NCBI GenBank assembly: GCA_050298595.1
Contig: JBNKUM010000094.1
Location: 1 to 64,000 of the forward strand
From: Gammaproteobacteria bacterium
Lineage (GTDB): Bacteria > Pseudomonadota > Gammaproteobacteria > GCA-001735895
Length of the DNA: 64,000 bases
Direction of reading: 5' to 3'
Part shown: piece by piece, positions 1 through 10,166 of the stretch
How positions within the stretch are numbered: position 1 is the stretch's first letter
Layout: every line of letters starts with the position of its first letter
Notes under the pieces: generated by a model
Seen by the model: only the letters and a program-made list of their open reading frames with translations
What the model was told of the DNA's origin: nothing
The model's database searches: none
Position numbers and translations under genes: made by a program

Positions 1-140
1 GGACGTATTGAACCGCGAGCGGTTAAACGAAGGCCGAAACCCTTTCCTCTGCTCACTATGCCACGTATTCAGGCTAAAGAAATTGTGCGAAAATATGGAC
101 ATCCTAAAAAGCAACGATAATGCTTAAGTCAGTGCCATTC
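1..140 (+). mobile_element. 3' end of an IS4-family element: transposase C-terminus (1-120) plus right terminal repeat
   Basis: Frame 1 reads GRIEPRAVKRRPKPFPLLTMPRIQAKEIVRKYGHPKKQR*, typical of an IS4-family transposase tail. It is followed by CTTAAGTCAGTGCCATT, an IS4-like end. The element runs off the window edge. Confidence 0.75.
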
Positions 141-820
141 GGGACAGACCACGGTTTATTGGCATTTAAATTAAAAATAAAGGTAACTACTCAGCGTAAT
201 ACCGTCAGTCGATAAACCTTACTCACAAAGATCAGGCAGTTGGCCATCAAAAAGTAATCTCAGTGCCTGCGAAGCAGATAAATTTTGCTTACGACAAGAG
301 GAAAGATAACCTCTCACACGACAGAATATTTTTGCGCCCTCAGCGCTACGAAAACATCCTGATATTTTTTGCTGTAATAATAGGGGACAGACCACAATTA
401 ATTGACCTCTCTGATCTATTGATCAAGAATAATAATAGGGGACAGACCACAATTAATTGACCTCTCTGATCTATTGATCAAGAATGGGGGTTATTTTAAT
501 ACACAGTAGGATGTGAAAATGCCGCGTAGATCACGCTTATGGAATAATAGGGGACAGACCACGGTTTATTGACATTTAGAAATAATAGGGGACAGACCAC
601 GGTTTATTGACATTTAAGATTCGAATGGAATAATCCGAGTGAGATATCAACAAAAGTCAGGATGACCAAAAATGCCCAGAAGAGCCCGCCTATCCGTTCC
701 AGGAATTCCCTGGCAAAAATAATCGGGGACAGACCACGGTTTATGGAATAATAGGGGGCAGACCGCGGTTTATTGATAGGAGGAATAATAGGGGACAGAC
801 CACGGTTTATTGACATTTAA
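141..820 (+). repeat. Array of 8 direct repeats, consensus AATAATAGGGGACAGACCAC(GGTTTATTGACATTTA), upstream of the RAYT gene
   Basis: Copies start at 141 (5'-truncated), 376, 431, 543, 581, 718, 747 (variant) and 784. There is an exact 55-bp tandem duplication (376-430/431-485) and a 135-bp duplication (581-715 vs 784-918) with 3 mismatches. Confidence 0.95.
183..375 (-). mobile_element. 3' remnant of an IS66-family (ISBst12-like) element
   Basis: Minus strand 374-219 reads QQKISGCFRSAEGAKIFCRVRGYLSSCRKQNLSASQALRLLFDGQLPDLCE*. Terminal sequence GTAACTACTCAGC at 183-195. Confidence 0.75.
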
Positions 821-837
821 GAATCGAATGGAATAAT
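810..837 (+). promoter_or_regulatory. Sigma70-like promoter of the RAYT gene, with its -35 embedded in the repeat
   Basis: TTGACA (810-815), 16-bp spacer, TG-n-AATAAT (832-837). Duplicate at 607-634; variant TTGACC-17-AAGAAT at 402-430 and 457-485. Confidence 0.6.
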
Positions 838-874
838 CCGGGTGAGATATCAACAAAAGTCAGGATGACCAAAG

Positions 875-1570
875 ATGCCCAGAAGAGCCCGCCTATCCGT
901 TCCAGGAATTCCCTGGCATATTATTCAAAGGGGAAACAACCGTTCTGCCTGTTTCTATTCCGATGAGGATTATCAGTTTTATCTAGAACGTCTCAAGGAG
1001 CTAGCGGAAAAATTTAGTTGTGATATTCATGCTTATGTTCTGATGACTAACCATGTACATTTGTTGCTGACTCCGGGCAAGAGAGATAGTGCGGCACTAT
1101 TGATGAAGAATTTGGGGCAGCGCTATGTTCAGTATGTTAATCATACTTACCGCAGAAGCGGCACTCTTTGGGAGGGACGATTTCGCTCCTGTTTAACTCA
1201 GTCAGAGGACTATGTCCTGGCCTGTTATCGTTATATCGAACTGAATCCGGTTCGTGCAGACATGGTGGCTCATCCGAGGGACTATCCCTGGTCAAGTTAT
1301 AAGTGTAATGCAGAGGGGAAGGCAAATAATTTAATCATACCACATGAACAATATATGCTTCTGGATCAGCTCGATAAACCCAGAAGAACCGCTTACCGGG
1401 CATTGTTCAGATCGCATTTTGATGAGGATCTGTATAAGCAGATCCGGCAATCAACCAATGGAAATTTTGTTTTGGGTAGTAGTCGTTTTCAGAAAGAAAT
1501 CGAAGAGGCGCTTGGTCGGAGAGTTACACCGGGAAAGTCGGGGAGACCTATTAAGAAGGATTTGATCTGA
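875..1570 (+). CDS. REP-associated tyrosine transposase (RAYT/TnpA-REP; IS200/IS605-superfamily Y1 HUH nuclease)
   Basis: MPRRAR...HIIQRGNNR start, HUH motif MTNHVHLL, LWEGRF, catalytic YIELNPVRA, YPWSSY. Adjacent repeat array. Confidence 0.9.
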   Translation: MPRRARLSVPGIPWHIIQRGNNRSACFYSDEDYQFYLERLKELAEKFSCDIHAYVLMTNHVHLLLTPGKRDSAALLMKNLGQRYVQYVNHTYRRSGTLWEGRFRSCLTQSEDYVLACYRYIELNPVRADMVAHPRDYPWSSYKCNAEGKANNLIIPHEQYMLLDQLDKPRRTAYRALFRSHFDEDLYKQIRQSTNGNFVLGSSRFQKEIEEALGRRVTPGKSGRPIKKDLI

Positions 1571-3279: not shown

Positions 3280-4322
3280 GTAAGCGCCCCAAAATCAGCA
3301 TCTCTTTTTCCTGATAGATTTCCAGAACAATTATCCTGTCTTTAATCACGTAGGAGAATTCCACAAGTACACGGACGCCTTGCCACTGTACCGCTTAGAA
3401 AAAATCCTCAAGCGTTATGGCGGCTCTATCAGCCGAACCACCATGGCCAACTGGATGATCCGACTGGGTGATGTGTTCAAACCGCTGATCAACCTGCTGC
3501 GGGAACAGCAATTATCTGGGGATTATCTGCAGGCGGATGAAACCAGAATGCAAGTGCTCAAGGAGGATGGTAAGTTCGCCACTTTGGATAAATGGATGTG
3601 GTTGATCCGCGGCGGTCCACTACAACAACCAGTGGTGTTGTTTGACTATGATGCCTCACGAAGTGAACAGGTGCCTGTGCGCCTACTTGATGGTTTTACT
3701 GGCGTCCTGCAGACAGACGGCTATGCCGGCTACAACAAGGTCTGTCGTGTTAATGCCATAACCCGTATTGGTTGCTGGGACCATGCCCATCGCAAGTTCG
3801 TGGAGGCGAGCAAGGCGGAAGTCGCCATTGATAAGATCCGAAAGCTGTATGTCATCGAAGGCAGGGTTAAGGGTTTGAGTGTGGCCGAGAAACAAGCGCA
3901 GCGTCAGCAACTGAGCCTGCCTTTACTCAATGAACTCAAAGCATGGCTGAAGCACAATATCAGCAATGTGCCGAAAGACAGCCTGACCCATAAGGACATC
4001 AACTACACACAATGAATCATTGGGAGATCCTAATCGGCTACGGTAAAGACAGCAAACTAAACATTAGCAATGCGCTGGCCGAAAATGCCATCAGATCCTT
4101 TGCGGTGGGCCGCAAGAACTGGCTCTTTAGTGATGCTCATAAAGGGGTCAAAGACAATGCGATCTGCTATAGTCTAATCGAGACGGCCCAGGCCAATGGC
4201 CTGGATTCTTACCAATACATTCGCCATGTACTGGAGAAATCGCTTATGCTGAAACAGTTGAGGATATCGAGGTCTGGCTGTACTGGAATGTTAGCCTATA
4301 AGGCTGATTCTCTAGTGTTTAC
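3280..4322 (+). mobile_element. Internally deleted IS66-family element with frameshifted tnpC fragments (3380-4015, 4012-~4290)
   Basis: LPLYR, LQADET, LQTDGYAGY, GCWDHA, SNALAENAIRSFAVGRKNWLF motifs. Ends GTAAGCGCCCCAAAATCAGC (3280) and revcomp GTAAACACTAGAGAATCAGC (4322). tnpA and tnpB are missing. Confidence 0.85.
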
Positions 4323-4433
4323 GGTATACTTTAGCTTGCTTCGACAATTGTGAATTTTTTAAGTCATTGAAATTAAGTGATATTTTTAAAATCAGGTATT
4401 CATTTGTGGGTGAAAATAGATCTGTTATGGATA

Positions 4434-4660: not shown

Positions 4661-4936
4661 ATGGGTGATATTTCAACGGATTTGGCGCTGGCATTATCAA
4701 ATGAAATGCTCTGGACTGCTGTAATTATTGGCGCGCCTGTTTTAGGGTTGAGTATGCTTATTGGACTACTAGTTAGTATTTTTCAGGTGGTTACTCAGAT
4801 TCAGGAAATGTCATTAACCTTTGTCCCAAAGATTTTAACAGTGGCTATAACACTTGGCGTTTTTGGAGGTTGGATGTTATTGACCTTAATGGAGTTTGCA
4901 CGTTCTGTGATTATCAATATTCCGTCATTTTTTTAA
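4661..4936 (+). CDS. fliQ: Export gate protein FliQ
   Basis: GLLVSIFQVVTQIQEMSLTFVPK motif; 91 aa. Confidence 0.95.
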   Translation: MGDISTDLALALSNEMLWTAVIIGAPVLGLSMLIGLLVSIFQVVTQIQEMSLTFVPKILTVAITLGVFGGWMLLTLMEFARSVIINIPSFF

Positions 4937-4966
4937 GTGCTTTTTATTAAGTAAGGATGTCTGTAA

Positions 4967-5731
4967 GTGACGGTTGATATCTCTATAGCATGGGTTGCTG
5001 CAATTTTATTATTGTCAATCCGATTTGGTGTGGTGATATATCTAGCACCAATGATTGCTGTGGCTAAAATACCAAATCAGGTTATGGTGCCATGGGTTAT
5101 CTCGATATCAGTTGGACTGTTACTAATCTCGAATGTGCAGCCCTTAGATATTAATAATATGGCTGAACTTTTTAGAGCTGCACTGTCGGAATTAGTATTG
5201 GGAAGTTTATTAGCTTTTGGCTTGCTGGCAGCCTTTGCGGCCTTTTTATTGGGTGGAAGAATAATAGATTTTCAAATGGGATTTGGTGTTGCCACCTTGA
5301 TTGATCCGGCAACTCGGACTCAAGCACCGGTTATTGGTAGTATCTTTAATCTTATTGCAATAATGGTTTTTTATACTATAGACGGGCATCATTATTTATT
5401 GCGCGGGTTGGCGTTTTCGGTTGAGAAGGTACCTCCAGGTACATGGATCGGTGATTTTGAAATATCGGTGGTTATTGCGCATTTTGGAGCAATGTTTACA
5501 TTTGCAATCGCAGTTGCTGCGCCAGTTATTTTTAGTATTTTATTGTTAGATATAGGTCTAGCCGTGATGGCAAGGACTATGCCACAAATGAATGTATTTA
5601 TTGTTAGCCTACCACTCAAGATATTCACGGGCTTAAGTGTTACCGCTTTGATGATACATTCACTAGTGCCATTAATGGAGAAAATATTTGAGGTGATTTT
5701 TGTATTTTGGCAAAAAATATTGGGACCTTAA
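4967..5731 (+). CDS. fliR: Export gate protein FliR
   Basis: GRIIDFQMGFG, ARTMPQMNVFIVSLPLK; hydrophobic, 254 aa. Confidence 0.95.
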   Translation: MTVDISIAWVAAILLLSIRFGVVIYLAPMIAVAKIPNQVMVPWVISISVGLLLISNVQPLDINNMAELFRAALSELVLGSLLAFGLLAAFAAFLLGGRIIDFQMGFGVATLIDPATRTQAPVIGSIFNLIAIMVFYTIDGHHYLLRGLAFSVEKVPPGTWIGDFEISVVIAHFGAMFTFAIAVAAPVIFSILLLDIGLAVMARTMPQMNVFIVSLPLKIFTGLSVTALMIHSLVPLMEKIFEVIFVFWQKILGP

Positions 5732-5833
5732 TCGCTTTTTAGATTAAGGAATGGGATTTGGATTTTTGGAGTGGAGTTTTGGGTTCAGTATCTCAAGCTA
5801 ATGAGGTGTTGTTGATCCCAATGTTGAAAAATC

Positions 5834-6907
5834 GTGGCAGAACAGGAACAGGATAGAACGGAACAGGCGACCCCTTTTAAGCTAAAGGAGGCCAAGAAGC
5901 GCGGGCAGGTGCCGAAAAGCCTGGAAGTGAATTCCTGGTTTGTGATGGCGTCTTTGCTAATGGCTTTATATATTTGGGGTGAAAGCATGATTCGCCAATT
6001 GGGCCGTATGAACCGCTCCATTTTTTCATATTCTGGTAAGCTCAGTTACTCTCCGGATGCGCTACTCAGCTGGCTCGGTGATGTCTTCTTCTCAGCGGCA
6101 TCAGTAATCACTCCTATTATCCTTTTAATAATGATAATCGCCGTTTTGATGAACTTTTTTCAAACCGGTCCAGTATTCAGTTTTTTTCCACTCAAACCAG
6201 ACTTTAACAAGATAAATCCGGTCACTGGTTTTAAACGCATATTCTCCATCAGAACAGTTTATGAAACGATTAAAAGTTTGATTAAGCTCGCGCTGTTTGG
6301 TTCTATTGTATATTTCTTTATCGTTGGCCTGCTACCTACATTACTGGGTTTTATGAATGTTGACCCTGATGCCTACCCCTATTTGTTTTTGCGCAAGGTT
6401 GAGAGCTTGCTCCTGCAATTAATTGGACTTCTTTTTATTATTGCGGCGATCGATATGGTTTATTCCAGAAGGGATTTTTCTGAAAAAATGAAAATGAGCC
6501 AGCGCGAAGTTAAAGAAGAACATAAACGTCGTGAGGGTGATCCTGAAGTTCGTGCCAAGATAAAAGAATTACAACGCGAGGCTTCTAAACGTGCGCAGTC
6601 GCTAAGCAGGGTTCCAGAAGCTGATGTGCTTATTACAAATCCAACACATAGGGCTGTAGCAGTTAAATATGACCGTAAGGTAATGGATGCGCCGCAGGTG
6701 ATTGCCAAAGGAGCGGGTGATTTGGCATTGAAAATGCGGCAGGTGGCAAAAGATAAAAATGTGCCTATTATTGAGCATAAATCTTTGGCTCGTGCTTTAT
6801 TTAAGGAGGTGGCGATTGATCAGGAAATTCCGGCTACTTTTTATGTGCAACTGGCCAAGATACTGGTTCGAATAAGTGGTGGTAGTCGTTTTGCTAAATC
6901 GTATTAA
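5834..6907 (+). CDS. flhB: Export switch protein FlhB
   Basis: RTEQATPFKLKEAKKRGQVPKS, EGDPEVRAK, autocleavage motif NPTH. Confidence 0.95.
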   Translation: MAEQEQDRTEQATPFKLKEAKKRGQVPKSLEVNSWFVMASLLMALYIWGESMIRQLGRMNRSIFSYSGKLSYSPDALLSWLGDVFFSAASVITPIILLIMIIAVLMNFFQTGPVFSFFPLKPDFNKINPVTGFKRIFSIRTVYETIKSLIKLALFGSIVYFFIVGLLPTLLGFMNVDPDAYPYLFLRKVESLLLQLIGLLFIIAAIDMVYSRRDFSEKMKMSQREVKEEHKRREGDPEVRAKIKELQREASKRAQSLSRVPEADVLITNPTHRAVAVKYDRKVMDAPQVIAKGAGDLALKMRQVAKDKNVPIIEHKSLARALFKEVAIDQEIPATFYVQLAKILVRISGGSRFAKSY

Positions 6908-6909
6908 GG

Positions 6910-8964
6910 TTGATTGAGCCGATGTTTAGCCGCTTGCGTCAATTAATTGGGGACCAGTCAGATCTTGTTTTGGTGTTTTCACTGGTGGGGATACTGCTGG
7001 TGTTGTTTACACCTATTCCTCCTGGGTTGCTAGACTTTCTTTTGATTATTAACTTCAGCTTTGCTTTGCTTATTTTACTGCTCACCTTCTACGTAAAAAA
7101 GCCATTACAGTTCTCCACGTTCCCTTCGCTGTTACTAATAGCGACATTATTTCGCCTGTCGTTGAATATTGCTGCAACCCGGCTGATTTTGTCTAACGGG
7201 CATGCTGGAGCGGTGATCGATGCGGTTGGTAATCACGTAGTCGCAGGTAATTACATAATTGGTTTTATCGTCTTTCTGGTTTTGATTGTTGTGCAATATG
7301 TTGTAGTAACCAATGGTGCGCAACGAGTAGCTGAAGTTGCTGCGCGTTTTACTCTGGATAGTATGCCAGGTAAGCAGATGAGTATCGATGCGGATATGAA
7401 TATCGGATTGATCGATGAAAAAGAGGCTCGTGAGCGGCGATTAAATATTGAAAAAGAAGCTAGCTTTTATGGTTCTATGGATGGGGCTAGTAAATTTGTA
7501 AAGGGTGACGCTATTGCGGGCATCATAATTATCATCATCGATATTATTGCCGGGTTAAGTATTGGTATAGCTCAACGAGGTTTGGATTGGGGAGAGGCGT
7601 TACATACTTACACTTTGTTGACGGTAGGTGATGGTATTGTTACGCAGATACCGGCGCTGATAATTTCTACGGCTACCGGCATTATTGTCACTCGTGCCGC
7701 TTCGGATGAGCAGCTTAGTAAAGAAATCTCAAAGCAGATTTTATTATTCCCAAAAATTTTAGTACTGGTGTCGATTGCGTTACTGGTTGCTATGTTTATT
7801 CCGGGTATTCCTACGTTGCCTGTCGCAATGCTTTTAATTATTGTCAGCCTGTTGGCTTTTGTCGCGTTACACAAGAAAAAGCAGGAGTCTTTCGATGAAG
7901 TTGAAGAAGCAGAAAATGCTGAGGGCGAAGACCTTTATGGCATGTTGTCTGTTGAACCTGTTGAGGTTCAAGTAGGGGCCAATCTGATATCCTTGATGGG
8001 AGATAATGAGAGTCAGGTAATGGATAGAATAGCTGCCTTCCGTAAGCAGATTGCTTTGGATTTTGGATTTGTTTTTCCTAAGGTTCGTGTTAAGGATAAT
8101 AAAAAGTTGTCACCTAATAGTTATAAAATTAATGTATTTAATGCTCAGGTTGCTGAGGGAGAGGTTCTTGCAGATAGAACACTGGCGATTAATCCAGGAA
8201 GCACTAAAAGTAAAATTGAAGGGATAGAAACTAAAGACCCTACCTACGGGTTGCCAGCTGTTTGGATCGTCAAAGATCAGGAAAAAACGGCTAAAGAATC
8301 AGGTTATACCTTAGTTGATCCGGAAACAGTTTTTATCACTCATTTGAAAGAAATCATTCGTCAACAGTCAGCAAATTTGTTAACGCGTAATGAGCTTGAA
8401 CTGTTGCTCGAGCGTATTAAACAAAAACATCCAACTCTGATAGAGGAGTTGATACCGTCTGTGCTCCGTTTAGGCGAGATCCAAAAGGTTTTGCAAAACC
8501 TGCTACGTGAGCAGGTCTCAATTAGAAACCTGGAAAGTATTCTAGAGGTGTTACTGGATTATGGGGCTGACGTTAAGGACCCTGAGCTTTTAACTGAGTT
8601 TGTCAGGCAGAGATTAGGTAATGTTATTTGCCAGGCTTTGACCAACGCTCAGGGTGATTTGTATGTGTTAACACTTGATCCAGTTGCAGAGAAGAAAATG
8701 ATGTCTGGCATTCGGAATATCAACGATAAAACGGTTATGGTGCTTGAGCCATCTTTATCGGAGCAGATGATGAGTACTGCGGCTAAACAAGTTGAAAATA
8801 TGATGAGCAATAATTTATTACCTGTGATTATCTGTGCTCCAGAAATACGACGTCATCTGCGTAATTTTACTGAAAGAGCTATGCCTCATCTTTCGATAAT
8901 ATCTTTAGCCGAGGTACCCAATACTGTTTCTTTAAAATCTTTTGGAATGGTGGCTGCTGCATGA
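6910..8964 (+). CDS. flhA: Export protein FlhA (FHIPEP family)
   Basis: RVAEVAARFTLDSMPGKQMSIDAD, FYGSMDGASKFVKGDAIAG; 684 aa. Confidence 0.95.
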   Translation: MIEPMFSRLRQLIGDQSDLVLVFSLVGILLVLFTPIPPGLLDFLLIINFSFALLILLLTFYVKKPLQFSTFPSLLLIATLFRLSLNIAATRLILSNGHAGAVIDAVGNHVVAGNYIIGFIVFLVLIVVQYVVVTNGAQRVAEVAARFTLDSMPGKQMSIDADMNIGLIDEKEARERRLNIEKEASFYGSMDGASKFVKGDAIAGIIIIIIDIIAGLSIGIAQRGLDWGEALHTYTLLTVGDGIVTQIPALIISTATGIIVTRAASDEQLSKEISKQILLFPKILVLVSIALLVAMFIPGIPTLPVAMLLIIVSLLAFVALHKKKQESFDEVEEAENAEGEDLYGMLSVEPVEVQVGANLISLMGDNESQVMDRIAAFRKQIALDFGFVFPKVRVKDNKKLSPNSYKINVFNAQVAEGEVLADRTLAINPGSTKSKIEGIETKDPTYGLPAVWIVKDQEKTAKESGYTLVDPETVFITHLKEIIRQQSANLLTRNELELLLERIKQKHPTLIEELIPSVLRLGEIQKVLQNLLREQVSIRNLESILEVLLDYGADVKDPELLTEFVRQRLGNVICQALTNAQGDLYVLTLDPVAEKKMMSGIRNINDKTVMVLEPSLSEQMMSTAAKQVENMMSNNLLPVIICAPEIRRHLRNFTERAMPHLSIISLAEVPNTVSLKSFGMVAAA

Positions 8965-10166
8965 ATATTTCTGAAGTCAGTCAGCAATTATCGAGTTTGT
9001 TGAGTAAGGCAGGAAGTCTGTTTCTAGCTGCTAATGATGACTTTACTAATCAGCTAACCATTGGGCAGATATTAAAAGGAAAAATGCTACGAAGCTATGA
9101 CGGGGGAAGATATGCTGTCGATTTTAATGGGCAAGAGAAAATTGTTGATAGCAGTGTACCTCTTAAAACGGGTGAGTTGATATATGGACGAGTTGTTAGA
9201 CTGGGCGATAAGGTTGAGCTTAAAAGACTGGCAGTTCCAGGTGAATATTCTCAGTTGAGTGAAACTCAGTCTCGGCCCCAAATTTTATCAAGCAAGTGGG
9301 AGTCTATGTTGCTAGAGGCTATGCAGGACTTTCATGTGGAATTTTCTGCACAGGAAAAAACGACAATTATTTCAATGCTAAAGCGTGTGGAGCAACCGCA
9401 AAGTTTATTAATGAGTGCAATAGCTCTAGTAAAACAAAACCTTCCTGTCTCAGAGCAATTATTACAGTTGCTGAGTGAGTTGAAAAAAGAACGCTTTTCA
9501 TTATTACCTGTTGACCAGGTTGCTCCAAGGCTTGAGTACGCAGAGGTGGCTGGTGAGGAATTTAATTCAGTAGTCCTAACAGGTTTGATTAATGAATTCA
9601 TGCGTTTGGTTGATGAGCAAAAACATATTACCCAGGAATTTTTTGAGAAAAATTCTATGCAAAACCAAAGCGGGGAAACTTCGGTTTCTTCGCAAGAGCA
9701 AGAGCGCTTTAATCAAAATCAAAACTTTGCAATGAAATGGCAGTTGCTAAATTCTCAAATTGATGGGGCGGTTCAACACAGGGTAGTGACCCTGCCTTTA
9801 TGGTTAGCTGATCGATTAGTTGAGGTTAATATTGCTATCTACGAACAGAATAAAAGGCATCAGCATGCAGAGGATATTAAGTTCAGGAAAATTATATTTT
9901 CTTTACAGCTTGAAAATTTGGGACAAGTGGATATAGAAATGATACTGCAAAATAAAAGTGCACGTTTACACATCACTTCGGAATCACGTGACTCGACGGA
10001 ATATCTGTTGGAGTATGCAACTGATCTAAATCGGGATTTAAAACATCACGAATGGTCGCTTGACGAAGTCGCCTATTCTACGAAAACATCTGATGAGCAA
10101 GGTAATGTGTTGAATTCAATAATTCAACACTATGTGGCTCAAGATAGCTTAAGCCAGTTGATGTGA
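8961..10166 (+). CDS. FliK-like protein with a C-terminal hook-length-control (T3S4-like) domain
   Basis: C-terminal FSLQLENLGQVDIEMILQNKSARLHITSES...LNRDLKHHEW pattern; directly upstream of a small FlhB-C homologue. Confidence 0.6.
   Translation: MNISEVSQQLSSLLSKAGSLFLAANDDFTNQLTIGQILKGKMLRSYDGGRYAVDFNGQEKIVDSSVPLKTGELIYGRVVRLGDKVELKRLAVPGEYSQLSETQSRPQILSSKWESMLLEAMQDFHVEFSAQEKTTIISMLKRVEQPQSLLMSAIALVKQNLPVSEQLLQLLSELKKERFSLLPVDQVAPRLEYAEVAGEEFNSVVLTGLINEFMRLVDEQKHITQEFFEKNSMQNQSGETSVSSQEQERFNQNQNFAMKWQLLNSQIDGAVQHRVVTLPLWLADRLVEVNIAIYEQNKRHQHAEDIKFRKIIFSLQLENLGQVDIEMILQNKSARLHITSESRDSTEYLLEYATDLNRDLKHHEWSLDEVAYSTKTSDEQGNVLNSIIQHYVAQDSLSQLM

What the first reader, a model, noticed from the sequence alone, without database searches (positions are those of the whole stretch)
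141..1570. RAYT preceded by a direct-repeat array of nested, truncated copies of RAYT promoter/5' ends
Seen: eight same-orientation repeats (AATAATAGGGGACAGACCAC...). Each unit runs a variable distance (55, 112, 38, 137, 29, 37 bp between successive starts from 376) and is cut off by the left edge of the next repeat. Unit 581-715 is a 3-mismatch copy of the RAYT promoter and first 14 codons (MPRRARLSVPGIPW, ATG 672). An IS66 fragment is also cut exactly at a repeat edge (375/376). The repeats lack the GTAG tetranucleotide and paired inverted layout of classical REP/REPIN elements. Inference: the repeat's left edge is an HUH cleavage/joining site, and repeated one-ended insertion or adjacent deletion builds an ordered record of events, a behaviour distinct from REPIN amplification and IS200 transposition.
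Basis: partly seen in the sequence, partly recalled or inferred. Interest (0 to 1): 0.72.

Follow-up and report, generated by a model that had tools for sequence, protein, structure and literature searches.

The report
Nested repeat array beside a TIRYT transposase
A tyrosine-transposase-like gene of the little-studied TIRYT kind is preceded by a pile of same-direction, cut-short copies of its own left end and promoter; this is a clear example of a known kind of repeat cluster, and it hints at where this untested enzyme nicks DNA.

Summary
Seven units start at 376, 431, 543, 581, 718, 747 and 784, and a half unit starts at 141. All lie on one strand. Each unit begins AATAATAGGGGACAGACC and is cut off by the next. 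Unit 581-715 copies the promoter and first 14 codons of the gene at 875-1570, with 3 mismatches.

The gene is a Y1/HUH protein of the TIRYT type (TnpA-Y1 subclass 2.1-like). The repeat is its left terminal repeat and carries the published GGGGWSAS motif. The claim that there is no inverted layout holds only for this locus. A 68%-identical ortholog in another genus has the motif inverted on both sides, and that genome holds many inverted pairs.

The array is not a simple ordered record, because it contains a 203-bp and an exact 55-bp block duplication.

The left edge does look like a specific joining point. In this and a second genome, cut-short tandem copies start 7-10 nt before GGGG, and foreign IS DNA is cut at that edge twice. 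Models of nicking, extension and rejoining were already proposed for REP/BIME arrays.

Verdict: a new member of a known kind, of moderate interest. Earlier notes of this scan report similar left-end joints on other DNA.

The parts
1..139 (+). 3' end of an IS4-family insertion sequence. The contig starts inside it. The right inverted repeat ends at 139.
   Evidence: The 39-aa C-terminal reading frame is 61-62% identical to ORFs annotated as IS4 family transposase. The inverted repeat GAATGGCACTGACTTAAGC is found at 64 places in the genome. The same 140 nt start contigs C39 and C111.
141..180 (+). Right part of a terminal-repeat unit split by the IS4-family element. 141-151 (GGGACAGACCA) is the 11-bp target duplication.
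   Evidence: The same 11 nt end the sequence before the left IS end at C20:5376-5386. A miniature copy of the same IS sits at the same spot in C22.
181..375 (-). 3'-terminal fragment of an IS66-family element, cut exactly at the left edge of the next unit.
   Evidence: tblastn of 222-374(-) hits C-termini annotated as IS66 family transposase. No full copy is present in the genome.
376..430 (+). Unit A1 (55 nt): the terminal repeat plus the upstream region of a different TIRYT paralog. It is an exact tandem copy of the first 55 nt of the next unit.
   Evidence: (family D2, 100%).
431..542 (+). Unit A2 (112 nt): the terminal repeat, the upstream region and the first 7 codons (ATG 519, MPRRSRL) of a second TIRYT paralog, cut after CGCTTAT.
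   Evidence: 85% identical to the upstream region and start of the gene fragment at C49:25123-25029.
543..580 (+). Unit of 38 nt, cut inside or just after the -35 box.
   Evidence: 36 nt identical to the master unit at 784.
581..717 (+). Unit of 137 nt: terminal repeat, promoter-like site 607-634, ATG 672 and 14 codons of the gene.
   Evidence: It has 3 mismatches to 784-918.
718..746 (+). Unit of 29 nt (AATAATCGGGG...).
747..783 (+). Unit of 37 nt (GGGGGCAGACCGCGG variant). Paralogous to unit 543 through the 203-bp block duplication.
784..874 (+). Intact left terminal repeat (core GGGGACAG at 791-798) and promoter-like site 810-837 of the gene.
   Evidence: The core fits GGGGWSAS (PMC3733652).
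875..1570 (+). TIRYT-type Y1/HUH gene, 231 aa, intact. HUH at residues 60-62, Y120 in a Y---NP motif, PWSSY at 138.
   Evidence: Pfam Y1_Tnp E=2.1e-13. NCBIfam REP_Tyr_transpos 78.3 bits against a cut-off of 80. PDB 4er8 TnpA-REP E=0.003. Motif positions.

Best explanation
The gene at 875-1570 is a TIRYT: a Y1/HUH tyrosine 'transposase' related to RAYT/TnpA-REP, close to TnpA-Y1 subclass 2.1. The repeat AATAATAGGGGACAGACC... is its left terminal repeat, a member of the published GGGGWSAS repeat family.

At this locus the right terminal repeat has been lost. The left one has been amplified locally into a head-to-tail cluster. The units share a fixed left boundary, about 7-10 nt before the GGGG core, and have variable right ends. 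The longer units therefore carry the promoter and the first codons of the gene.

Most likely mechanism (inferred, not shown):
1. The protein bound at the GGGG core nicks the top strand at that boundary. It stays linked to the 5' end and leaves a 3'-OH.
2. A host polymerase extends the 3'-OH for a variable distance, often only as far as the bound core.
3. The protein-linked old 5' end is then rejoined to the new 3' end. This gives a tandem duplication that runs from the boundary to a variable end.
4. If the 5' end is joined instead to a 3'-OH further upstream, the DNA next to the edge is deleted. This would explain the truncated IS66 fragment.

Later events copied whole blocks of units (55 bp and 203 bp). 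An IS4-family element that targets the repeat core then split the outermost unit.

Shown here: the anatomy, the family assignment, the boundary statistics and the inverted layout in relatives.
Inferred: that the protein does the cutting, which strand is cut, and the extension step.
For: Family:
- Pfam Y1_Tnp, near-threshold REP_Tyr_transpos, 4er8.
- HUH 60-62, Y120 in Y---NP, and the serine motif next to it.
- The core GGGGACAG fits GGGGWSAS / GGGG[AT][CG]A[CG] (PMC3733652 section 16, passages; PMC6006769 section 20, read whole).

Cognate repeat:
- The G066 ortholog (68% identity) has the motif upstream of the gene. It also has the motif inverted, overlapping the stop codon.
- G066 holds 36 exact copies of the 14-mer.
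- In five genomes with 3-8 copies, I found only more distant homologs or a remnant.

Fixed left boundary:
- In G066, 15 of 41 copies have the 6-mer before GGGG repeated within 40 nt upstream. The 3' control gives 4 of 41 and the distal control 2 of 41.
- A scan without that lower bound finds 21 of 46 cores with an adjacent upstream tandem copy. Starts fall at -7 to -10 in 15 of the 21, and ends at 0 to +2 in 10 of the 21.
- In G000, 26 of 332 cores have such a copy, with starts at -7 to -11 in 14 of the 26.
- The boundary keeps its distance from GGGG even where the 7-10 nt differ between copies of one repeat family. It also holds for long units of 36-112 nt.

Foreign DNA joined at the edge:
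- IS66 fragment at 375/376.
- IS4-like left-end fragment abutting GTAAAAGGGGACGGAGGG upstream of the C76 paralog.

Chemistry known for relatives:
- TnpA-REP cleaves near its REP and up to more than 400 nt away, and does strand transfer. Amplification by nick, extension, second cleavage and transfer was proposed in PMC3333891 (section 25, read whole).
- Any attacking 3'-OH oligonucleotide is joined to the cleaved 5' end in the CST assay (PMC8266576, passages).
Against: - There is no biochemical or in vivo evidence for any TIRYT. Only 3 papers in the library hold the word (2 listed).
- No conserved dinucleotide stands at the boundary or at the right ends, unlike C|T or C|A in TnpA-REP (my reading of the junctions listed).
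- The repeat is not a stable hairpin as single-stranded DNA (-1.8 kcal/mol, z -0.12). This removes the usual recognition structure.
- Several junctions carry 2-8 filler or mismatched letters (GG, CG, TAGGAGG).
- Some junctions show microhomology: AAT at 429/430, and TTAT before GGAATAAT twice. This also fits polymerase slippage.
- Part of the array arose by block duplication, which needs no site-specific enzyme.
- Copies of the repeat in G000 are related by descent, so their shared AATAAT edge is not many independent events.
- Unitigs cannot confirm the order of the units.
- The strict 7-mer scan gave equal raw counts, 13 on the 5' side and 13 on the 3' side. The asymmetry appears only after inspection: 12 of the 13 on the 5' side are repeat stutters. 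On the 3' side, 5 of the 13 are whole-unit repeats of this array type and most of the others look like chance.
Confidence: 0.55

Rival explanations
1. The units arose without catalysis by the transposase. The cause would be replication slippage, template switching and unequal recombination between short A/T-rich direct repeats. These could be favoured because a protein bound to the GGGG core, or the G-run itself, stalls the polymerase just upstream.
For: - Microhomology at some junctions: AAT at 429/430, and TTAT...GGAATAAT shared by 537-548 and 741-752.
- GGAATAAT also occurs at the -10 box inside the unit.
- Block duplications of 55 and 203 bp.
- Most stutters in G066 are 7-9 nt tandem duplications, the size class typical of slippage.
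- No conserved cleavage dinucleotide.
Against: - The left boundary keeps its distance from GGGG for units of 36-112 nt, where slippage has no reason to start there.
- Asymmetry between the 5' and 3' sides: 15 against 4 of 41.
- Junctions to unrelated IS DNA at the same edge, without visible homology.
- The 7-10 nt differ between loci, so no common repeat drives the events.
Confidence: 0.25
2. Excision and reinsertion. The protein cuts at the left boundary and at a loosely specified second site downstream. This releases a single-stranded piece (a circle), which is reinserted at the left boundary of the same or another copy. This is the diversification model of Ton-Hoang et al., Figure 7A.
For: - The same polarity and the same product ([edge..x][edge..full]) are expected.
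- TnpA-REP cuts at many sites up to more than 400 nt from a BIME (PMC3333891).
- Unit A (376-542) comes from the upstream region of a different paralog, whose relative lies on another contig (C49). This needs transfer between loci, or an older rearrangement.
Against: - No shared sequence at the right ends that could be a second cleavage site.
- The commonest right ends lie at the start of the core (0 to +2), where a bound protein would sit. This fits blocked extension better.
- No free or elsewhere-inserted copies of the short pieces were looked for.
Confidence: 0.15
3. The array is an assembly artefact of a short-read or metagenome assembly at a contig end.
For: - The array lies within 900 nt of the start of contig C94, which begins in a multi-copy IS.
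- The exact 55-bp repeat could be miscounted.
Against: - Every junction is covered by unitigs with 0 differences in three runs. In the third run only two of the five stretches are among the pieces listed.
- Units differ by point changes that make them resolvable.
- The same kind of array is seen on other contigs and in other genomes.
Confidence: 0.03

Closest known systems
TIRtron / TIRYT (Di Nocera, De Gregorio and Rocco 2013, PMC3733652). Quentin et al. 2018 (PMC6006769) write that TnpA-Y1 subclass 2.1 'probably corresponds' to it.
   Same: A Y1/HUH protein longer than classical RAYTs. It is flanked not by GTAG hairpins but by terminal repeats with the motif GGGGWSAS at a set distance from the gene. 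The repeats form moderately abundant families arranged as singles, dimers or clusters. One genome holds several divergent paralogs, each with its own repeat.
   Different: - Here only the left repeat is present.
- It is amplified head to tail, with nested, cut-short units that include the promoter and 14 codons.
- I did not see the fixed -7 to -10 boundary and the 5' stutters in the passages I read.
- No HTH domain was detected by Pfam in this 231-aa protein.
REPtron / BIME amplification by TnpA-REP of E. coli (Nunvar 2010, PMC2817692; Ton-Hoang 2012, PMC3333891; Corneloup 2021, PMC8266576)
   Same: - A HUH Y1 enzyme bound to a repeat next to its own gene.
- Tandem reiteration of repeats with flanking DNA.
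- Uptake of transposase gene fragments into the arrays.
- Proposed nick, extension and strand transfer.
- Joining of any 3'-OH to the cleaved 5' end in vitro.
   Different: - The repeat has a GGGG core and no GTAG head.
- It is no stable hairpin in this genome.
- Units are direct only, with no alternating REP/iREP.
- It is the 5' end and promoter of the gene that is copied, not the 3' terminus.
- No C|T or C|A signature at the junctions.
IS200/IS605 family (IS608, ISDra2)
   Same: A Y1 HUH core. Strand-specific single-strand chemistry. The cleavage site is set at a distance 5' of the recognised element and not by direct sequence reading (as summarised in PMC3333891 and PMC6006769, passages).
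   Different: - NCBIfam transpos_IS200 scores 22.5 bits against a cut-off of 55.
- No near-identical copies in the genome; the best paralog is 50% identical.
- No subterminal hairpins at both ends.
- No constant target tetranucleotide.
One-ended and rolling-circle elements (IS91, ISCR, Helitrons)
   Same: One constant end and a variable other end. Capture of adjacent DNA. PMC3333891 (section 25) draws this comparison for TnpA-REP.
   Different: As I recall (no call tested it), those encode larger rolling-circle HUH transposases and read through a terminator end. Here the variable end falls short instead of reading through, and the protein is a small Y1 enzyme.
Insertion sequences that target REP sequences (named as a class in PMC3333891, introduction; ISPpu9 in the abstract of PMC8450116, seen in a search listing)
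   Same: The IS4-family element and its miniature derivatives insert at one spot in the repeat core with an 11-bp duplication.
   Different: The target is a TIRYT repeat, not a GTAG REP. As I recall, the known REP-targeting elements belong to other IS families. I did not check this.

Membership tests
TIRYT / TIRtron (Di Nocera 2013) | Y1 tyrosine transposase homolog with HUH motif and catalytic tyrosine | tested here: met
   Pfam Y1_Tnp E=2.1e-13. H60-V61-H62 and Y120 in YIELNP. Aligned to 4er8.
TIRYT / TIRtron (Di Nocera 2013) | Gene flanked on both sides by terminal inverted repeats instead of GTAG hairpin REPs | tested here: not met
   The left repeat is present at 784-820. I found no inverted copy downstream with up to 2 mismatches, apart from one chance-like site near 2240. 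The 68%-identical ortholog in G066 does have both, so the right repeat was probably lost here.
TIRYT / TIRtron (Di Nocera 2013) | Terminal repeat carries the motif GGGGWSAS | tested here: met
   GGGGACAG at 791-798, and in 6 of the other 7 copies (754 reads GGGGGCAG).; motif from PMC3733652.
TnpA-Y1 subclass 2.1 (Quentin 2018) | C-terminal extension after the core, with a short serine motif next to the catalytic tyrosine and an HTH-type domain (Bac_DnaA_C, HTH_23 or HTH_28) | tested here: inconclusive
   There are about 90 residues after the core, and PWSSY at 138. Pfam reports no HTH family at E up to 0.01. Placement in their tree was not tested.
RAYT / REPtron in the strict sense (Nunvar 2010; NCBIfam NF047646) | Score above the curated equivalog cut-off | tested here: not met
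   78.3 bits against a cut-off of 80.
RAYT / REPtron in the strict sense (Nunvar 2010; NCBIfam NF047646) | Flanking palindromic REPs with a 5' GT[AG]G head | tested here: not met
   No GTAG head next to the motif. The unit folds no better than shuffles.
REPIN (Bertels and Rainey 2011) | Two repeats in inverted orientation forming one long hairpin, dispersed in the genome | tested here: not met
   In G000 all 10 exact copies of the 14-mer lie forward on their contigs, in direct arrays. The same 14-mer does form such pairs in G066, G052, G047, G045, G022 and G074.
IS200/IS605 insertion sequence | Curated family score, and several near-identical copies with hairpin ends | tested here: not met
   transpos_IS200 scores 22.5 bits against a cut-off of 55. 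tblastn hits lie on 21 contigs, but the best is 50% identical.

The most novel reading that the evidence does not exclude
The cut-short tandem copies are footprints of TIRYT action. On this reading the enzyme, never tested at the bench, nicks the top strand 7-10 nt 5' of its GGGG core, whatever the sequence there. It then reseals after a short, protein-blocked extension. If so, genome sequence alone maps its cleavage site. TIRYTs would act mainly as local nick-and-reseal amplifiers and makers of adjacent deletions, not as movers of whole elements. In this locus the process has multiplied the enzyme's own promoter.
Probability: 0.35. Interest if true: 0.6.

Novelty: new member of a known kind. 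Interest (0 to 1): 0.4.

Why it matters
TIRYT / subclass 2.1 genes are common: 14.9% of strains in Quentin et al. 2018. Yet I found no experiment on them (3 papers hold the word, 2 listed), and that survey found no REP-like structures beside them.

This locus and its relatives give a concrete, testable prediction for the cleavage position: 7-10 nt 5' of the GGGG core, on the strand that reads GGGG. They also give natural examples of the nick, extension and rejoining amplification that was proposed for E. coli BIMEs but, according to that 2012 paper, was then unproven in vivo.

The locus also shows a practical consequence. These repeats are hot spots for deletion, for duplication of promoters and for insertion of a dedicated IS4-family element. 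They therefore shape the local genome and break assemblies.

The locus is not a new kind of system.

Tried and rejected
- **Assembly artefact.** I laid Logan contigs of 4 runs on 1-1700. Unitigs of X1 and X2 cover all junctions, and X3 lists two of the five stretches. X5 holds only parts. All of these are contigs, so order, copy number and strand cannot be read. One joint, 455 to 783, appears in X2 at much higher depth with a 24-nt side. I could not interpret it; it is probably another organism or locus.
- **Hairpin.** Both strands of the unit, folded as single-stranded DNA, are no better than shuffles.
- **Inverted copy downstream of the gene.** None found.
- **Is the IS66 fragment at 181-375 the missing half of the IS66 remnant at 3380-4353?** There is no similarity between their C-terminal parts, and the two lie on opposite strands. 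Rejected.
- **Footprints of the IS4-family element or its miniature copies as the source of the stutters.** Its duplication covers +1 to +11 of the core, whereas the stutters start at -7 to -10. Rejected.
- **Iteron-like binding sites.** The stuttered letters differ from locus to locus. Rejected.
- **A conserved dinucleotide at the boundary or at the right ends.** None seen among the junctions.
- **Generic 7-mer scan around every GGGG.** This was swamped by chance hits and by an unrelated 47-nt tandem family (152 against 121). The stricter scan gave 13 against 13 raw counts and had to be read by eye. It also dropped this array's own units, because AATAATA failed my low-complexity filter.
- **Earlier notes by sequence.** Nothing found.
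- **Alternative right-strand reading.** I considered 5'-truncated retro-element-like copies on the minus strand. I rejected this because the units carry the promoter and start of a plus-strand gene, and no reverse transcriptase is near.
Full report
**1. The observation.**
The window is the first 64 kb of contig C94 of a 5.49-Mb assembly of 119 contigs. The sequence and the repeat finder show eight same-strand copies of a unit around GGGGACAGACC. The 11-mer, with up to one mismatch, occurs 8 times in the window, all on the + strand. The shuffles expect 0.40, and 0 of 100 shuffles reach 8.

Each unit matches the full copy at 784 (or, for the first two units, a second master sequence) from its first base. 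Each then stops where the next AATAAT begins.

Unit 581-715 differs from 784-918 at three positions. It contains a promoter-like site (TTGACA, 16 nt, AATAAT with TG; 11 of 12), an ATG at 672 and 14 codons of the gene at 875-1570.

Units 376 and 431 belong to the upstream region of a different paralog. Unit 431 runs on through ATG 519 and seven codons (MPRRSRL). It is 85% identical to the upstream region and start of a gene fragment on contig C49.

**2. What lies to the left.**
Bases 1-139 are the end of an IS. Its last 39 codons are 61-62% identical to ORFs annotated as IS4 family transposase. The copy at 141 is the right part of a unit that this IS split.

The 11 nt at 141-151 (GGGACAGACCA) equal the 11 nt before the left end of the same IS at the end of contig C20. 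C20 itself ends in an array of about eight further cut-short units in the same orientation. C20 and C94 are therefore probably neighbours across one IS copy, and the whole array would be about twice as long. This is inferred from the matching target duplication only.

Bases 181-375 are the terminal part of an IS66-family element on the minus strand. It is cut exactly at 375/376.

**3. Is the array real?**
Logan unitigs from three runs of one study cover 132-404, 456-570, 549-610, 602-715 (or 620-715) and 686-811 with no difference. For the third run, only 132-404 and 686-811 of these are among the listed pieces. Every junction therefore exists in the reads behind those contigs. Unitigs cannot show the order or number of units, and the array lies at a contig end.

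**4. What the gene is.**
- The 231-aa product matches Pfam Y1_Tnp (E 2.1e-13).
- It matches NCBIfam REP_Tyr_transpos at 78.3 bits, just under the cut-off of 80. It matches transpos_IS200 at only 22.5 bits against 55.
- It matches the E. coli TnpA-REP structure 4er8 weakly (E 0.003).
- It has HUH at 60-62, Y120 in a Y---NP motif and PWSSY at 138.
- The genome holds related genes or fragments on 21 contigs, the best 50% identical. These are divergent paralogs, not copies of one IS.

Most intact paralogs are flanked on both sides, in inverted orientation, by their own A/T-rich stretch followed by GGGG[AT]C[AG]G (C76, C111, C30, C110, C94:214065). This is the arrangement published as TIRtron/TIRYT, whose terminal repeats share GGGGWSAS (PMC3733652, section 16, passages read). 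Quentin et al. 2018 write that subclass 2.1 probably corresponds to TIRYT. They give GGGG[AT][CG]A[CG] and state that no REP-like structures were found beside these genes (PMC6006769, section 20, read whole). GGGGACAG fits both patterns.

**5. The inverted layout exists in relatives.**
The 14-mer AGGGGACAGACCAC occurs in 23 of 61 genomes of the family that I searched, G000 included.

In G000 all 10 exact copies lie forward on their contigs, in direct arrays. In G066 there are 36 copies (14 forward, 22 reverse). Many are plus/minus pairs 35-100 nt apart that form long perfect hairpins. Such pairs are also seen in G052, G047, G045, G022 and G074.

G066 holds a 68%-identical ortholog of the gene. 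It has the motif upstream, and the inverted motif overlaps its stop codon. In G000 the homology ends just there and no right repeat follows.

Five other genomes with 3-8 copies gave only more distant homologs (39-57% identical) or a 3' remnant next to a repeat.

**6. Cut-short copies are a general feature with a fixed left boundary.**
The same pattern, [edge..x][edge..full], occurs in several places:
- at other loci of this repeat (C20, C22, C34);
- in other repeat families of the superfamily in G000 (12 sites in the strict scan, for example GAGTTAAA three times before GAGTTAAAGGGGTCGGAGG at C30);
- beside the genes in 6 of the 12 relatives' loci L002-L013, and in 0 of the 7 loci L014-L020, which belong to a more distant, conserved clade;
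- on both sides of the G066 ortholog.

In G066, 15 of 41 repeat copies have the 6-mer before GGGG repeated within 40 nt upstream. The matched 3' control gives 4 of 41, and a control further upstream gives 2 of 41.

A scan that does not force a lower bound finds an adjacent upstream tandem copy at 21 of 46 cores. The repeated stretch starts at -7 to -10 from the first G in 15 of the 21, and closer than -7 in only 2. It ends at 0 to +2 in 10 of the 21. In G000 the figures are 26 of 332 cores, most of which are chance occurrences of the pattern, with starts at -7 to -11 in 14 of the 26.

The boundary keeps its distance where the 7-10 nt differ between copies of one family (CGAAACC, CAGAAACC, GAACAAAATC and ACACATTTC, all before GGGGTCAGATCAC). 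It also holds for long units of 36-112 nt. A second common right end is just after GGGGTCA or GGGGAC.

The raw counts of the strict scan were equal, 13 and 13. The asymmetry in that scan rests on my inspection of the hits.

**7. Foreign DNA at the edge.**
Besides the IS66 fragment, the left 250-300 nt of the IS4-family element upstream of the C76 paralog stop exactly at GTAAAAGGGGACGGAGGG. That makes two cases. Both fit a deletion that ends at the outer edge of the repeat.

**8. The array is not a simple ordered record.**
Bases 375-429 and 430-484 are identical. Bases 528-715 and 731-918 are 93% identical over 189 nt, so units 543+581 and 747+784 are copies of one two-unit block. C20 holds a 40-nt two-unit block twice. 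There are thus fewer independent events than units.

**9. Mechanism.**
The published work on the sister family already contains the needed chemistry and the idea.
- Nunvar et al. 2010 proposed that the conserved 5' head sets the cleavage position, that the free hydroxyl can prime replication, and that ligation in trans rearranges DNA. They list a supplementary file on the incorporation of the rayt 3' terminus into a BIME (PMC2817692, passages). I did not open that file.
- Ton-Hoang et al. 2012 showed cleavage near a BIME and up to more than 400 nt away, and showed strand transfer. They proposed amplification by nick, extension, second cleavage and transfer. They also noted sequestered gene fragments, including tnpA-REP (PMC3333891, section 25 read whole).
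- Corneloup et al. 2021 join any attacking 3'-OH oligonucleotide to the cleaved 5' end (PMC8266576, passages).
- Di Nocera et al. 2013 state that large REP clusters hold units reiterated in tandem with flanking DNA of variable length.
- Bertels and Rainey 2011 describe tandem REPIN clusters next to RAYT genes (PMC3116915).

My reading applies this to the TIRYT: a nick 7-10 nt 5' of the core, extension that is often blocked at the bound core, and rejoining. Rejoining to an upstream end instead gives deletions.

This is inference. Against it stand the lack of any conserved junction dinucleotide, filler letters at several junctions, some microhomology and the absence of a hairpin. A slippage process favoured by a roadblock at the core is the main rival. 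Excision and reinsertion is a second, enzyme-dependent variant.

**10. Verdict.**
It is wrong in setting the system apart from REP/RAYT-type systems and in reading the array as a strict event log.

The locus is a member of the known TIRtron/TIRYT kind, with a one-sided, nested cluster. The regular -7 to -10 boundary is an observation I did not see in the passages and sections I read of PMC3733652, PMC6006769, PMC3333891, PMC2817692, PMC3116915 and PMC8266576. Nor was it pointed to by the searches. Supplementary figures of those papers were not opened and may bear on this.

Earlier notes of this scan report left ends of TIRYT genes joined to other DNA at one point, and same-direction stumps, in other genomes. 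They agree with this reading but are not independent evidence.

That the organism is a marine sulfur-oxidising gammaproteobacterium comes from such notes, not from my own test.

Noticed in passing
window 1-139; G000 C20:5387-5525, C22:28726-28880, C21:35712-35905 and about 60 further ends; L013, L040: An IS4-family element and many miniature copies of about 150 nt (inverted repeat GAATGGCACTTACTTAAG; 64 matches with up to 2 mismatches). By eye, nearly all of them sit inside GGG(G)NCNGA-type repeat cores. They make an 11-bp target duplication and are also present in other genera. This is a dedicated inserter into TIRYT repeats.
   Followed up: partly
G000 C20:5230-5386 and window 141-151: Contig C20 ends in an array of about eight more cut-short units, followed by the left end of the IS. 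Its 11-nt flank equals window 141-151. C20 and C94 are therefore probably adjacent, and the full array would be about twice as long.
   Followed up: partly
G000 C22:28881-29037, C52:14809-14520, C104:16960-16758 and about 12 further loci (e.g. C94:199551-199629): In three places the same repeat plus its -35 box is followed not by a gene but by a non-coding module of about 200 nt. The 80-nt core of that module is itself dispersed over a dozen loci. The module contains another GGTCAGGTCTT-type repeat.
   Followed up: no
G000, many contigs (e.g. C40:31065-31155 region, C49, C51:44544-44634, C56:53919-54009): A 47-nt unit (GCCTATAGGGACATAGGTAAGGGGCGTGAGCAGGACGCGGAAGC...) stands in 2-3 tandem copies at many loci. 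It is a separate, unexplained repeat family.
   Followed up: no
window 3380-4353 and 4661-10166: A 5'-truncated, frameshifted IS66-family transposase remnant lies directly before flagellar export genes (Bac_export_3, Bac_export_1, FlhB-type, FHIPEP, FliK-like). The transposase locus thus sits in an IS-ridden gap in front of a flagellar operon.
   Followed up: partly
G000 C34:5438-5570: Here there is a copy of the unit with the full promoter but no gene. Similarity to the upstream region of the gene stops about 5 nt before the ATG position, and unrelated DNA follows.
   Followed up: no
G000 C114:13170-13340 (minus strand): A long run of a 12-nt tandem repeat (GTTCCGGGGTTA type), picked up by the GGGG scan. 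Its nature was not examined.
   Followed up: no
L014-L020 and G000 C85:88141-88821: A more distant clade of the gene (about 40% identical) is conserved with the same upstream neighbour across genera. It has a single hairpin (TTAAGGGGTCAGCACCCTTAA) upstream and no stutters. It looks like a fixed, perhaps domesticated copy.
   Followed up: no
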